Shown here piece by piece: positions 16,033-63,152 of a stretch of 64,000 nt of DNA (positions are counted from its first letter, which is position 1; each line of letters begins with the position of its first letter). The DNA lies in assembly GCA_951406725.2 (NCBI GenBank), contig OX597828.1, forward strand, positions 15,810,001 to 15,874,000. Reading direction: 5' to 3'. The stretch comes from Octopus vulgaris (taxonomy: Eukaryota). The notes under the pieces were generated by a model. The model searched no databases, was not told the origin of the DNA, and worked only from the letters and a program-made list of their open reading frames with translations. The position numbers were made by a program, and so were the translations under genes.

Positions 16033-16266
16033 GGCATATGGCATAGTGGTTAAGAGCGCGGGCTACTAACCCCAAGATTCTGAGTTCGATTCCAGGCAAT
16101 GACCTGAATAATAATAATAATAATAATATTGAAAAATACCTTAGGAATAACCCAGGTTCAAAATTTCCCCAAGACACCTGATAAAGGCTGGAGGGCATAT
16201 CAGCTGAAACGTTGTGCTAGCAACAAACAAGATGAGGACAAATGTCCGTCAAATGTAAATAATGTA
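16033..16266 (+). mobile_element. tRNA-headed short element carrying a degenerate hammerhead-like motif
   Basis: A box tggcatagtgg (16039-49), anticodon-like arm ggg-ctactaa-ccc, B box gagttcgattc (16082-92), (AAT)n, then ctgataa-a-ggctg...cagct-gaaacgtt. Relatives at 51579-51820 and 61631-61842. Confidence 0.7.
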
Positions 16267-19200
16267 ATGGTTAATGATATTTGTTTCTTTATTACCCACA
16301 AGGGGCTAAACACAGAGGGGACAAACAAGGACAGACAAAGGGATTAAGTCGATTACATCGACCCCAGTGCGTAACTGGTACTTAATTTATCGACCCTGAA
16401 AGGATGAAAGGCAAAGTCGACCTCGGCAGAATTTGAACTCAGAACGTAATGACAGACGAAATACGGCTACGCATTTCGCCCGGTGTGCTAACGTTTCTGC
16501 CAGCTCGCCGCCTAATGATAATATTAACAATGGTTTCTAAGGCAGTGAGCTGGCAGAATCATTAGCATGCTGCACAAAATGCTTAGTGGCCATTTTGTCC
16601 ATCTTTACATTCTGAGTTCAAATTCTGCTGAGGTTGTTCTTGTCTTTCATCATCTCAGGGTTGATAAAATAAGTACCAGTGGAGCACAGGAGTCGATGTA
16701 AATGACTACCTCCTTCTTCCTCAATTTCAGGCTTTGTGCCTACGGCAGAAAGGAGTATTAATGATTTCTAATTTAGGCACAAGGCCAGCAAATTCTGAGG
16801 GGAGTGTCATAATCAATTAGGTTTATGTTCCTGATTGGTACTTCACTTTATCAACCCTGAAAGGATAAAAGTTGATTTCAGTGGAATTTGAATGGGGTAC
16901 GTGATAAACCAGAACAAATAATAACAGGCATTTTTTCTGATATTCTAATGACTCTACCAACCCACTTTTAATCCTTTTTATCTTCTTTATCTTTAAGAAG
17001 TCTTTTTAAACACTAAATTATGTATATCCTGTTTTGTATAAAAACCTTGCAGATCCTGTCTTGTACAAAAGCCTATCACTTTGAAAAGAATGTACTGGAA
17101 ACTAACATTTTCTTCCTTCTTAAGGCAGTCAGTGTATATATATATATATATGTATCATATAAGTACTGCTATTATTACTATTATTGCAAGGCCTAACATG
17201 AGACATACGTTAATTAATTTTGTATTAACGATAAGCACTAACACTGCTGTGAATACTTACCAAATTGAATCTAGGGGTGCAGTTTTGTTTCCTTATTAAA
17301 ATGGTTTTGATTAACCCTTTTGTTACTATATTTCTTTTGAAATATTAAAAGAATCTGAGCAAAATTACTGCCATTATTTTGCTGGTGTAAGGCAGTGAGC
17401 TGGCAGAATTGTTAGCGCTCTGGGTAAAGTGCTTTGCAGCATTTCATTTGTCTTTATGTTCTGAGTTCAAGTTCTGCTGTGGCTGACTTTACCTTTCACC
17501 CTTTTAGGGTTGATAAAATATGCATGAGTTGAGCACGGAGGTTGATATAATCAACTTACCCCTTTCCCTGAAATTATTGACCTTAGGCCAAGAATAGAAA
17601 CTATTGTTAAGCTGGCATTTGAGACAAAAATTAACATGAAATTTTGATGGAAAGTTTTAATTTTTATTATTTTAAAACAGGAAATTTGTATTATAGTGTC
17701 AGGGGTCATCTTAGGTGGAGTACCATCAAAAGGGTTAGATGACACTAACCCCTGCACACTGCTTAGGTTGGCATTTTCTTTATTGTAGCAGGTGTTGTAG
17801 GATTACCTTAAACTGGCTTTATCCAGCCACAATATTCTTCCAGTTATATGTTCAAACTGACCAGATCCAACCTCTCAAACCTACTCAAATATGTTAGTCT
17901 AGAAAATATAGTCATATAACTGAAATATCAAGGCTACAAGATAATAGCAGGATACGTTTAAAACAATGTGAATAAAGAAGCGTTACACTTGACAGAATAA
18001 TCTGAACGCTAAAGGGTTAAAGTTTCCAAGTGTGACTCCTGTCAGGTTTATAAATGAAATACTGTTAGTATAATAGTTAACAATAAAGTGACGATGAAAC
18101 AAAACCGACATTTTCTTTGAATATAATGTTGCACAGATAATATCAACCCTGTTTTATCTGTTGATTGCATTGATTACTGCATTGTGTCATCAACATTCCG
18201 GCCATCATTTGATGCATGTACAATAAGTTTTGTTTGCTTAGCCTTTTATTTTCACATTCCCTAATTCAACAAATATTCTACACCTGTATACTTGGGTAAA
18301 TGTTGCTGCTTTTGTGGGTGGTGAAATGTCTCAGTCAACAGGAATTACCATTCTGTTATGAGCATTAACCCTTTCTTTACCAACCTGGCTGAAACCGGCT
18401 CTGGTTCTGAATACAAATGTCTTGTTTTCATAAGTTTCCAAATAAAATCTTCCACCAAACCTTAGTCACAATTTATATTCCTAACACTAGCTAAATGATA
18501 ACTAAGTTATTTTAGTAAATTCTTTGTTATATTTAAAGTAATTGAAAGAAACACAGATCATCTCAAAAGAAATACGGTAACAAAATGGTTAATAAATTGT
18601 TTATTTACAGTTTCATTGTGATAACATATTGAGTCCCCCTGCCTGAAATATTTTGGTATAAAATTTGTCACTCATTTTATCCCTGCCCCTCAAGCACATT
18701 TGATAGTTATTCATAACAGTCATGAAATTAAACATATTTAATGTTTTTATATAGAAATGATGAAAGTATGACTTGTTACTCTGTGAGATTAGATGTTATT
18801 ATCAGACTTTATAATCTCTCATCTCTTGGTACAACACAACCTCCCTCACTGCTGCCCCCCCCCTCAGTTGGCAGGGTTTGTCTTCTGGGTTACTTCTGGG
18901 TGACCTCAGCTAGTGCTGGGGCCCTGTAAAAAGCACCTAATACACTCTGTGAAGTGGTTGGTGTTAGGAAGGGCATCCAGCCATAGAAACCACCATGCCA
19001 ACGTAGACACTGAAACTTGGCACAGTCTTTGGCTGATCAGTACCTGTCAAATGTCCAGCCTATGTCAGCATGGAAAACGTTTAACGATCATAGTGATGAT
19101 GAAAACCAGTTATGGCTAGTGTGAGCTGATAGCTATGTCTTGAATGTAGCCAAATTTAACAAGTCTGTCAAAGAGTTATACATGATGATAACCAATTATA

Positions 19201-19275
19201 AATATATGAACAAAAGCAAAAATGTATTTGGTGATTGTTATATATTTACCTTTTTCTCCTTTTATTTTTTTACAG

Positions 19276-19383
19276 ATGATTCCAGTGATAGAAAAATCTT
19301 GGGTGTTGGATATCACATACAAGCAGTTAGTGAAGTCAGTCACATACCAGTTGAACATTTCTACTGTTCTGACTAAAGAATGA
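19276..19383 (+). promoter_or_regulatory. candidate 35-codon uORF ending in an ATGA overlap with the main start
   Basis: ATG at 19276 reads [38 protein letters not shown] at 19381-19383 overlaps ATG at 19380-19382. Confidence 0.5.
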
Positions 19384-20154
19384 AGGAACAATTTAGTGCT
19401 GCTCTGATTAATCACACCACACAAATGAAACCAACATTCCCTGCTGGCATCCCTGCCAATATGCATTGCACTCCTGTTACCACTCTTGGGGCATTTACCA
19501 CTACTCAGGTGTTGTCTCCAGTCTACTTACCTGCTAACTTTCCAGGCTTCTCACAACAGGTATTTACTAATAACCAACTGTTTGTGAGTACTCCGCCCAC
19601 TGTAGTTTTGCAGCCTAATTTCCAGTGTCTACAGAGCATTCCTACTGCTAGTCTGACCAATACATTCCCAGCTGTCAACGCGATAGAGCCCGTGTCGACT
19701 ACAAATGTAGAGGCTGCTGATGAACCAGTGTTGCTTGAGGAGGACCCCAATGAGGAGTTGGTGATTACAAATTCCAAAGAGCAGAACTACGAACAGAACC
19801 GAGAAGAAACGGAAGTGGGAAGTTCTGTATGTGAAGAAGGGAAAGACGAAGTGTCTGTCGACCTCGACTCGGACGCTTCCTGTGAGATTTGCCCCGACAC
19901 TGACAACAAGTCTGTCGACTCGGTCATACTGACCGAGAAGTACGACCAGTTTGTGTCGTCTGAGTCTCCGGTCTCCGAGAATGTTGAAGAGGAAGAGGAG
20001 GAGGAGGACGAAGAAGAAGAGGAAGAGGAAGATGAGGAAGATTATACCGAAGAGATAAGTAGTCAGAATCCCAGTGAAGTACCAGTCTCTCCGAGTGGCT
20101 CTGAAGAAATTCCTGATCCTCACTGTAACCTGGACATGTGTGAAGATACAGAAG
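19380..20154 (+). CDS. SFMBT1: SFMBT-like coding exon 1 (exon starts 19276; ATG 19380); P/T/Q-rich then acidic N-terminal extension
   Basis: Pyrimidine tract and tacag acceptor ending 19275. In-frame TAA at 19374-19376 precedes the ATG. 258-codon open frame with poly-E tract. Donor gaag|gtaata, phase 1, fits the next exon. Confidence 0.78.
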
Positions 20155-61630: not shown

Positions 61631-61842
61631 GTTCTCATTCCTAAGGTATTTTTCGTTGTTGTTATTATTCAGGTCACTGCTTGGAGTTAAACTCGGAATC
61701 TTGGGGTTAGTATCCTGCGCTCTTAACTGCTATGGGGGCATATGGCGTAGTGGTGATGAAGGCTGGAGGGTATATCAGCTGAAATATTGTGTTTAACAAC
61801 AAAGAAGATGAGGACAAATGTCCATCAAATGTAAATAATGTA
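61631..61842. mobile_element. third, rearranged copy of the same element (inverted tRNA head, then forward hammerhead part)
   Basis: 61631-61735 is the reverse complement of the 16040-16150 type sequence, followed by gtgatgaaggctggagggtatatcagctgaaat. Confidence 0.7.
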
Positions 61843-61959
61843 AATTATTCAACATAGTTAACAAATTCACAGAGTAAAAATATTTACATTGATCCTGCTA
61901 CCATTCAGTTGGCAGAATAAACTTACCAGAATAGTGTATATTTGGTCAGAACAAAGAAT

Positions 61960-62186
61960 TTAACCCTTTAGTGTTCAGATTATTCTATCAAACATAATGC
62001 TTATTGATTCATATTGATTTGAATTAATCATGCATTATCTCATATCTTCAAGATCTTGATGGTGTAATTACTTAATGTAGAATAACATTGTAGGGTAGGT
62101 GCGAGAGCCTGGATCTGGTCAGTTTGAACATAAAACAGATTAACTATTTTGGCCGGATATGGCCGGTTTAAATACTAAAGGGTTAA
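61960..62186 (-). mobile_element. TTAA piggyBac-like MITE family E
   Basis: TIR ccctttagt/actaaaggg with TTAA on both sides; near-identical reverse complement of 58528-58755. Older copies near 17800-18020, 28597-28815, 37427-37641, 53992-54207. Confidence 0.88.
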
Positions 62187-63152
62187 GGAGGGATTATTAG
62201 AGTTTATAGTAGCAGGAGGAGATAATTGACCCAAGCAAGCCAGTTATCTAAACTTCTAACAATAGAGGAAGGATCGACTCTGATTGTCTAGCTTTTTATC
62301 TCAAGTAAGTTGTTTGTGTACTTGTCAGTCATCATCATCATCATCATTGTCATTTAACATCAGCTTTCCATGCTGGCATGAGTTGGACAGTTTGACTGAG
62401 GGCTGGCGAGCCAGAAGACTGCACCAGTCTTCAATTTGATCTGGTAACAACAAACAATAACTAACAACCCAGCTTCAGAATTTTTCCCCTCTATCAATTC
62501 AGGGACGATACAACCTGTATCAGCACTTTAGTAAAGAGTCATTCTTTATCACAAAATATAATCCCCTTCTGAATGCATCCACAACAAATGATACTATCAC
62601 CAGGGCCTTAGAATAACACCCACACAAATATTGAAAACAATATATTGTAAACAGTCACTTTACATGAATTTATTCAGAATTCCAATCACTACTATTACAA
62701 CCACAACAGGTCACTTTTAGTAGGTCACTTGACCATTTGAGAGGATTCCACCAACATCCTGCTACTGTCATACCATTCCTGCATTTTTATTCTTTCTCTT
62801 CTTCTTCGCTGCCTCCTTTCTCTACTACTACTGCTGCTTAAACAATCAAAGACAAGAATTCATATCAACCTAGCTGCTGCTAACTACCTAGAACCCACAA
62901 GAATAGAAAACAGAGACAAACAGAAAAAAGGAAAATGTCCCTTGCATTTGAACACTGTGGAAATATTTTCAAAAAACATTTCATTTAATTTTTCCACAAT
63001 TTAATTGTTTTCCATGCTTTACTCTAAGTTGAAAAAGTTGCAAAGACTGAAACCGGTACTAAAATGTTCTTCATGAGAAAATTATTTTACCATTTTCTAC
63101 CTTGTCTTTTTTCCTTATACATATCAACTCGTGTGTTCCTTTTCAACCTACT

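What the first reader, a model, noticed from the sequence alone, without database searches (positions are those of the whole stretch)
16173..63065. Six hammerhead-like motifs from three to four unrelated repeat families, all sense to the SFMBT gene
Seen: the layout stem I - CUGANGA-like core - stem II - GAAA - very short or palindromic stem III - NUH - stem I' occurs at 16173-16217, 25354-25406, 25537-25574, 51732-51777, 61753-61793 and, very degenerately, 63025-63062 (ttgaaaa-agt..act-gaaa-ccgg-ta). The stems differ in sequence between families yet still pair. I found no complete minus-strand example by eye. Known: minimal type I hammerheads with palindromic stem III mark Penelope-like elements and retrozymes and cleave as dimers. 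Inference: several short ribozyme-bearing retroelement families populate this genome and would be transcribed in this pre-mRNA. The strand bias could be chance at n=6.
Basis: partly seen in the sequence, partly recalled or inferred. Interest (0 to 1): 0.75.

Follow-up and report, generated by a model that had tools for sequence, protein, structure and literature searches.

The report
Penelope retroelement tails with hammerhead ribozymes
The six self-cutting-RNA motifs are real, but they are the broken-off tail ends of four very common protein-coding jumping-gene families, they show no detectable preference for the host gene's strand and likely do not cut its RNA, and two families carry oddities (a changed catalytic core, a tRNA-like start signal) whose function is untested.

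Summary
All six motifs are present. They are 5'-truncated 3' ends (pseudo-LTRs) of four autonomous Penelope-like element (PLE) families in an octopus genome: A (three copies, Poseidon-type), B (Hydra-type), C and D (Neptune-type). Each has thousands of copies and sits downstream of a GIY-YIG endonuclease ORF. They are not short retrozymes.

'All sense' fails. A seventh, intact-core motif lies on the minus strand at 61459, the 16173 copy is 3.2 kb upstream of the SFMBT start codon, and 800 kb of dynein introns give 19 sense against 16 antisense. Only the 51732 copy is fully intact.

Family cores look selected: N7 varies, the other core positions do not, and stem pairs covary. D's 'degenerate' core is the known U3-A8 variant. 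B uses U4C. C has A6U in 93 of 100 sampled copies of a family with 13,000-17,000 pattern matches; I found no report of that. A's repeat begins with a tRNA-like A/B-box head where 20 of 52 copies start.

This scan noted the same PLE reading and the tRNA head before on other DNA of this genome. Cleavage is untested.

The parts
16033..16267 (+). Family A copy 1: 3' pseudo-LTR of a Poseidon-type PLE. tRNA-like head (16033-16106), (AAT)n, hammerhead 16173-16217 with core 16178-16184 carrying G8A. Lies 3.2 kb upstream of the SFMBT ATG.
25349..25467 (+). Family B stub: 3' end of a Hydra-type PLE in (TA)n. Hammerhead 25354-25406. The family core is CCGACGA (U4C); this copy's textbook-looking core probably arose by two CpG transitions, and its stem II is broken.
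25478..25672 (+). Family C stub: 3' end of a Neptune-type PLE in the same (TA)n tract, ending about 35 nt before an SFMBT acceptor. Hammerhead 25537-25574 with the family-wide A6U core.
51567..51832 (+). Family A copy 2: inverted 3' tail piece (51579-51626, minus) followed by a direct copy starting inside the head (to 51822), with a 12-bp target-site duplication at 51567 and 51821. Hammerhead 51732-51777 is the only fully intact motif of the six (GUU triplet).
61234..61567 (-). No ORF was linked to it.
61631..61845 (+). Family A copy 3: inverted piece (61631-61727, minus) plus a direct copy with an internal deletion joining the head's A box to the core, which removes C3 and the 5' arm of stem I.
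62447..63178 (+). Family D: 5'-truncated Neptune-type PLE. End of the GIY-YIG endonuclease frame (62447-62592, broken), 3' UTR, hammerhead 63025-63062 with U3-A8 core, tail, then (CA)n(TA)n.
14610..14816 (.). Head-to-head inverted pair of family B pieces, both lacking the 5' half of the core.
19380..64000 (+). Host gene SFMBT (four MBT repeats, SLED, SAM). 13 coding exons lie between 19380 and 59423 in the window; two SAM exons lie just beyond its right end.

Best explanation
The six motifs are minimal type I hammerheads carried in the 3' pseudo-LTRs of four autonomous Penelope-like retrotransposon families (one Poseidon-type, one Hydra-type, two Neptune-type), left here as 5'-truncated stubs with no detectable strand preference, and as lone, mostly damaged copies they likely do not cut the SFMBT pre-mRNA. 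Shown: family membership, linkage to endonuclease ORFs, the insertion shape (inverted 5' piece, a tail of about 35 nt on one arm only, microsatellite or AT-rich targets), and family-level conservation of the core. Inferred from published work on other PLEs: a partial-tandem element is transcribed from the upstream pseudo-LTR; its RT-endonuclease nicks AT-rich DNA and starts reverse transcription at one of two sites near the RNA 3' end; most events stop early and leave the ribozyme-bearing stub. The ribozyme likely acts on the element's own RNA, weakly, as a dimer through the palindromic stem III or with help from the element's protein. In family A a tRNA-type A/B-box head inside the pseudo-LTR likely gives short RNA polymerase III transcripts that the same enzyme copies, which would explain the SINE-like copies.
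For: ORF linkage on the same strand downstream of the probe hit: D 24 of 30 loci, C 18 of 30, A 19 of 30 with the head in 23 of 30, B 9 of 30 with a 3' UTR near the 1.5-kb flank limit. The D partner has 784-799-aa frames with Pfam RVT_1 and GIY-YIG, and one locus shows hammerhead-ORF-hammerhead 4240 nt apart. Clade motifs match PMC8557442. Of 52 family A copies, 29 have an inverted upstream piece; the tail is on the direct arm in 24, on the inverted arm in 13 and on both in 0, the signature in PMC8557442 and PMC11167929. Core left free in the pattern, first 100 rows: family C N7 = 35T/32C/24A/9G with all other core positions 93-100% fixed; family A N7 = 77T/19A/4C, others 95-99%; family D U3-A8 core in 99, with the first stem II pair A-U 21, G-C 64, G-U 13, A-C 2. 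The fourth stem I pair is C-G in C and G-C in its relative F. Strand: 19 sense and 16 antisense in 80 ten-kb dynein-intron stretches, 15:12 for copies passing a loose core test. The anole PLE hammerhead cleaves only with protein and is not needed for insertion in vitro (PMC11167929).
Against: No cleavage was measured. The strand test is small (sense fraction 95% CI 0.37-0.71) and uses one gene family, so a modest bias is not excluded. In family A the motif overlaps an ATG-started frame (open for at least 38 codons in 20 of 35 copies) with N7 at a third codon position, so coding constraint could mimic ribozyme selection. CpG decay inflates T at N7 in family C, though not A or G. Clades were assigned by motifs, not by a tree with named references. 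The head has A- and B-box motifs but no Rfam tRNA match and no ARAGORN call. A hairpin at the head's 5' edge could also explain where copies start.
Confidence: 0.86

Rival explanations
1. The motifs are short non-autonomous ribozyme elements (retrozymes or hammerhead SINEs) that borrow PLE enzymes.
For: Most copies are short. 20 of 52 family A copies start within 11 nt of the head's first base and none start between 9 and 108 nt upstream of it, apart from one alignment artefact at an inverted junction, so part of family A behaves like a SINE. Family E shows partial repeats of 300-390 nt and no linked ORF.
Against: All four named families run directly out of endonuclease ORFs. 6 of 52 A copies extend at least 109 nt into the ORF end. 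None of the six copies is a head-to-tail multimer.
Confidence: 0.08
2. Sense-strand hammerheads are retained in this gene because they cut or regulate the SFMBT pre-mRNA.
For: Five of six complete intronic motifs are sense. The 51732 copy is intact and folds as predicted. The B and C stubs end about 35 nt before an acceptor.
Against: An antisense intact-core copy exists; 6:1 gives p=0.125 and dynein introns give 19:16. Four sense copies have lesions or weak cores. Minimal hammerheads did not cleave as monomers (PMC4209133). Dimer strand exchange needs a same-family partner (inference), and the other A copies are 10 and 35 kb away and damaged.
Confidence: 0.04
3. The hammerhead fold is a non-catalytic relic or a protein-binding scaffold in these elements, kept for shape and not for cutting.
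For: Three of four families carry core variants (U4C, A6U, U3-A8). Changes at A6 and U4C lower activity in vitro (PMC3088659 passages). Family C reached more than 12,000 copies with A6U. Cleavage was dispensable for insertion in vitro. No depletion from the sense strand of introns was seen.
Against: Free N7 with fixed catalytic positions, and the C3-G8 to U3-A8 swap, are what selection on catalysis predicts. U3-A8 ribozymes are active.
Confidence: 0.15

Closest known systems
Minimal hammerheads in pseudo-LTRs of metazoan PLEs (Cervera and De la Pena 2014, PMC4209133; parts 1-2 of 4 read)
   Same: Type I layout, short or palindromic stem III, extra nucleotide after A9, many families per genome, mostly solo truncated copies, and a U3-A8 variant (about 1,300 hits in Schistosoma mansoni).
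   Different: The parts read do not cover octopus, and report no family-wide A6U core and no tRNA-like head.
Poseidon_Ac of the green anole (Frangieh et al. 2024, PMC11167929; parts 1-2 of 4 read)
   Same: Poseidon-type ORF without the linker zinc finger, hammerhead overlapping the ORF start, optional 30-40-nt tail from two RT start sites, AT-rich targets.
   Different: Family A's pseudo-LTR begins with an A/B-box head and an (AAT)n tract; its protein and ribozyme are untested.
Hydra-clade PLEs (Craig et al. 2021, PMC8557442; section 11, passages, supplement part 2 and search hits)
   Same: [quoted passage not shown]
   Different: Its hammerhead differs from that listed for Hydra-1_Obim. It has a U4C core and a 3-bp stem II; none of the Hydra rows in File S2 shows U4C.
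Neptune-clade PLEs and Drosophila virilis Penelope (PMC8557442, PMC4209133)
   Same: C and D partners have a C-terminal GIY-YIG with a CX4CxxC linker and (TA)n targets. Like D. virilis Penelope, D has a 2-3-bp stem I with an acceptor-like AG directly before the core (31 of 34 copies).
   Different: Cores are U3-A8 (D and a second family G) or A6U (C). Young D copies have a separate upstream ORF. Splicing at that AG is untested.
Schistosome SM-alpha hammerhead SINEs and animal non-LTR retrozymes (PMC6765202 passages; bioRxiv 10.64898/2026.07.22.740005, parts 1-3 of 5, supplements closed)
   Same: Pol III-type promoter upstream of a type I hammerhead (family A); short hammerhead repeat without ORF (family E).
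   Different: Those are non-coding tandem repeats. Family A's head is embedded in the 3' end of a protein-coding PLE and its copies are solo or inverted pairs.

Membership tests
EN+ Penelope-like elements | RT followed by a C-terminal GIY-YIG endonuclease upstream of the repeat | tested here: met
   D: Pfam RVT_1 and GIY-YIG, 24 of 30 loci linked. A 19 of 30, C 18 of 30, B 9 of 30; for A, B and C read from translations, not Pfam.
EN+ Penelope-like elements | Partial tandems forming pseudo-LTRs, inverted 5'-truncated copy, 30-40-nt tail on one end only | tested here: met
   Family A: 29 of 52 inverted, tail 24/13/0. D tandem in L109. Inverted pairs in B and D.
EN+ Penelope-like elements | Microsatellite or AT-rich targets | tested here: met
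   B, C and D copies abut (TA)n in the printed loci; seen by eye, not counted.
Poseidon / Hydra / Neptune clades | Diagnostic linker and endonuclease cysteine motifs | tested here: met
   A: no linker finger. B: CxCX5C, no CCHH. C and D: CX4CxxC. This motif does not separate Neptune from Nematis.
Poseidon / Hydra / Neptune clades | Placement in an RT phylogeny with named references | not tested
   No named reference set was on hand; the wide protein search returned unnamed relatives only.
Minimal type I hammerhead | Core CUGANGA...GAAA...UH or a known variant, at family level | tested here: met
   A canonical, D U3-A8, B U4C. Family C is treated in the next row.
Minimal type I hammerhead | Conserved A6 (family C) | tested here: not met
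   U at position 6 in 93 of 100 rows and A in 2; 96 and 2 of 100.
Minimal type I hammerhead | Stems I and II with covariation, palindromic stem III | tested here: met
   D stem II A-U to G-C; C versus F stem I C-G to G-C; palindromes in A, C, D and an interrupted one with a free loop base in B. These are a few subfamily-level events, not a statistical covariation test.
Minimal type I hammerhead | Self-cleavage at NUH as a dimer or with protein | not testable with these tools
   Needs a bench assay; unstranded RNA reads showed no listed end pile-up at the predicted sites in 14000-33900.
Non-LTR retrozymes | Non-coding head-to-tail repeats with a hammerhead in each unit | tested here: not met
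   A-D are ORF-linked and not tandem here. Family E is inconclusive.
tRNA-derived Pol III promoter (family A head) | A box and B box at tRNA spacing, 5' ends at the head, similarity to a tRNA | tested here: inconclusive
   Both boxes present about 40 nt apart and 20 of 52 copies start there, but no Rfam tRNA match.

The most novel reading that the evidence does not exclude
Octopus PLE hammerheads are protein-dependent ribozymes whose cores can drift because the element's own protein rescues them: a Neptune family keeps every catalytic position except A6 (fixed as U) across four N7 lineages and more than 12,000 copies, and a Poseidon family has put a captured tRNA-type promoter inside its pseudo-LTR, so that one element yields both full-length copies and Pol III-made, PLE-mobilised SINE-like copies. 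Protein dependence would also explain why sense-strand copies are tolerated in introns.
Probability: 0.3. Interest if true: 0.68.

Novelty: new variant of a known kind. Interest (0 to 1): 0.4.

Why it matters
What PLE hammerheads do is an open question: they cleave weakly, one needs its protein, and cleavage was dispensable for insertion in vitro. This genome offers natural test material: four families from three clades with canonical, U3-A8, U4C and A6U cores, and young D copies with open 784-aa frames. The even split of sense and antisense copies in introns suggests, within a wide interval, that tens of thousands of such motifs are tolerated in pre-mRNAs. A Pol III-type promoter in a pseudo-LTR would give a direct route from an autonomous PLE to SINE-like elements. 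For the SFMBT gene itself the finding is ordinary.

Tried and rejected
Rfam scan of the window: no hammerhead at E<=10, only microsatellite-driven and other sub-threshold hits. Monomer folding z-scores and homodimer MFE folds did not discriminate; the dimer folds mostly paired other regions.

Linking family B to a Neptune-like ORF in L341 was rejected: the locus is chimeric, with a break at the start of the B UTR. My recalled label 'Nematis' for B's true partner was replaced by Hydra after reading PMC8557442. The B-UTR column used a wrongly oriented query and was ignored.

Family A as a stand-alone SINE was my first reading and was dropped. A GIY-YIG family search returned Neptune-type families but no partner for A, B or C. 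A splice that would give old D copies a longer stem I was considered; the candidate donor is not kept in young copies (by eye), so it is left open.

RNA: no RNA holder listed for family A. Three raw runs were unstranded, differ from this genome at many sites and are swamped by repeat reads; they show the 19380 exon is expressed, but no splice joint upstream of it was among the rows shown. Whether 16173 lies in a 5' UTR intron is therefore open. ARAGORN at a relaxed threshold gave only spurious calls on the head. The strand test could not be enlarged beyond 800 kb. Lunse et al. 2017 is not held and may already describe some of these core variants.
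Full report
OBSERVATION. The six stretches are in the window as described (core positions). The window lies in a 2.8-Gb genome. Its gene matches a database octopus SFMBT protein at 93-100% identity over 15 coding exons from 19380 to 67568 on the plus strand, with four MBT repeats, SLED and SAM. Five motifs are intronic and sense. 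The 16173 motif is 3.2 kb upstream of the start codon; I could not show that it is transcribed with the gene. A descriptor scan of both strands gave 3 perfect-core hits against 0.15 in 40 block shuffles, and 8 against 3.6 with one mismatch. One perfect-core hit is on the minus strand at 61459 and belongs to a fifth repeat family, E (49 candidates). So 'all sense' is wrong: 6:1 gives p=0.125.

FAMILIES. The six motifs fall into four dispersed families. A (16173, 51732, 61753): 2474 exact matches to a 35-nt intact-core pattern and 4825 with the core left free, controls 0. B (25354): 1890. C (25537): 16771 and 12918 with two patterns. D (63025): 3308, control 17. These are lower bounds.

WHAT THEY ARE. 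Each family is the 3' end of a protein-coding Penelope-like element. D: a copy carried a broken RT-thumb and GIY-YIG frame upstream. A protein probe found 13,502 candidates, many with 784-799-aa open frames that hit Pfam RVT_1 and GIY-YIG, and 24 of the 30 loci fetched have a sense D-type hammerhead downstream. The window copy keeps the last 50 codons or so of the endonuclease, 62447-62592. L109 shows the classic partial tandem, two hammerheads 4240 nt apart around the ORFs. A: an earlier scan note (e1-8669850) said this repeat ends a Poseidon element; I tested it. A probe from L194 found 2649 candidates; of 30 loci, 23 have the head about 400 nt after the probe, just past the stop codon, and 19 the sense hammerhead body. 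C: a second Neptune-type probe found 10,785 candidates; 18 of 30 loci have a sense C motif downstream. B: after rejecting a chimeric locus, a probe from L367 found 6893 candidates; 9 of 30 loci have a sense B motif downstream, most 0.9-1.3 kb away, near the flank limit. Its linker and endonuclease motifs match the Hydra clade as defined in PMC8557442 (section 11; alignment rows). Clades are assigned by motif only.

INSERTION SHAPE. Of 52 family A copies taken mostly in order along contig C1 from the intact-core list (52 of the first 72 rows), 29 have an inverted piece upstream. The tail of about 35 nt is on the direct arm in 24, on the inverted arm in 13, and never on both. That is the signature described in PMC8557442 (passages) and traced to two RT start sites in PMC11167929. 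The window's 51732 copy has an inverted tail and a 12-bp duplication. B, C and D sit in (TA)n.

RIBOZYME CORES. I tallied by eye the first 100 rows of patterns with the core left free; all rows but a few are from contig C1 and are conditional on the fixed letters. A: N7 77T/19A/4C, other positions 95-99% canonical. C: positions 3, 4, 5, 8, 9 are 100, 98, 96, 94, 100% canonical; N7 is 35T/32C/24A/9G; position 6 is U in 93 and A in 2. B: the majority core is CCGACGA (U4C), and the stem III loop base varies three ways. D: U3-A8 core in 99; the first stem II pair is A-U 21, G-C 64, G-U 13, A-C 2. A further Neptune family (G) also has U3-A8. Free N7 with fixed catalytic positions suggests selection in source elements (inference). 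Caveats: in A the motif overlaps an ATG frame, open in 20 of 35 copies, with N7 at a third codon position; CpG decay feeds T at N7 in C. U3-A8 and U4C are known, and A6C is known as a low-activity natural variant (PMC3088659 passages; PMC4209133). A search for hammerhead + A6U + core listed one paper, on twister ribozymes (listing only). Lunse et al. 2017 could not be read, so novelty of A6U is not settled.

THE WINDOW COPIES. 16173 has G8A. 61753 has lost C3 and the 5' arm of stem I by an internal deletion. 25354 has a canonical-looking core, probably from CpG decay, but a broken stem II. 25537 has the family A6U. 63025 has an intact U3-A8 core but only 2 contiguous pairs in stem I. Only 51732 is intact, with a GUU triplet, and folds as drawn. 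Single minimal hammerheads did not cleave in PMC4209133, and the anole one needed protein.

STRAND TEST. Dynein heavy-chain genes were located and oriented by Pfam exon hits, and 80 ten-kb stretches in 14 genes were fetched. Profiles of ten families found 19 sense and 16 antisense motif-spanning copies, 15 and 12 passing a loose core test; p=0.74 and 0.70; 95% CI of the sense fraction 0.37-0.71. Eleven partial hits were not counted, inverted pairs contribute one to each side, and four small families were seeded partly from this set. A descriptor alone gave 13:13. Adding SFMBT's 5:1 gives 24:17, p=0.35. There is no detectable bias; a modest one is not excluded.

THE HEAD OF FAMILY A. About 30 nt after the ORF stop comes a stretch of about 75 nt with an A box and a B box about 40 nt apart, then (AAT)n. 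Of 52 copies, 20 start within 11 nt around its first base, 9 inside it, 6 at least 109 nt upstream, 1 at an inverted-junction artefact, and 16-17 show no detectable head (the printed list has 35 starts). That pile-up fits Pol III transcripts, but a small hairpin at the same place could stall reverse transcription. Rfam's tRNA model does not match, so 'tRNA-derived' is likely, not shown. Five searches of the paper library listed no paper whose title or abstract start describes such a head in a PLE; I opened one of those listed (PMC6765202, passages), which gives the schistosome Pol III hammerhead SINEs as the nearest case. Subscription papers and Repbase were not searched. Earlier scan notes on this genome report the same head (e1-8669850, e1-8663237).

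MECHANISM. Shown: PLE ends, insertion shape, conserved cores, no detectable strand preference, damage to most local copies. Inferred: transcription from an upstream pseudo-LTR, nicking of AT-rich DNA, early-stopping reverse transcription that scatters ribozyme-bearing stubs; weak dimer- or protein-assisted cleavage of the element's RNA; no effect on SFMBT. Confidence 0.86.

VERDICT. A real feature of a known kind, with two variants worth a bench test (A6U core; tRNA-like head). The strand claim is refuted. Interest 0.4.

Noticed in passing
L105, L107, L108, L109 (young family D elements): A separate upstream ORF of about 400 codons starts about 140 nt after the 5' hammerhead and overlaps the RT-endonuclease frame in another phase; seven of eight long copies open the second frame after a stop at the same place. 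This suggests a frameshift or a splice.
   Followed up: partly
window 63005-63028; L074-L102: An acceptor-like pyrimidine tract and AG lie directly before the family D core (31 of 34 copies), as reported for the D. virilis Penelope intron.
   Followed up: partly
L210-L229: A second young Neptune family (G, 781-aa frames) also has a U3-A8 core with a different stem II and palindrome; its 3' UTR holds tandem units with TGACGTC motifs.
   Followed up: partly
L125, L126, L140, L148, L162, L186, L195, L014, L019, L365, L372: At least five more hammerhead families (F, H, I, J and others) with different stems and palindromic stem III occur in the fetched DNA.
   Followed up: partly
window 25349-25705: The B and C stubs share one (TA)n tract that ends about 20 nt upstream of an SFMBT splice acceptor, close to where the branch point should lie.
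   Followed up: no
L333-L362: Many family B copies start right at the 5' arm of stem I, often as head-to-head pairs that could fold back over the ribozyme.
   Followed up: no
window 4568-4961, 9307-9724, 14397-15007, 20197-20602, 40885-41277 and others: Several other abundant SINE-like repeats populate the window (families D4-D20), some beside family A insertions.
   Followed up: no
window 29882-30013: A long, nearly perfect inverted repeat of about 130 nt, possibly a small foldback element.
   Followed up: no
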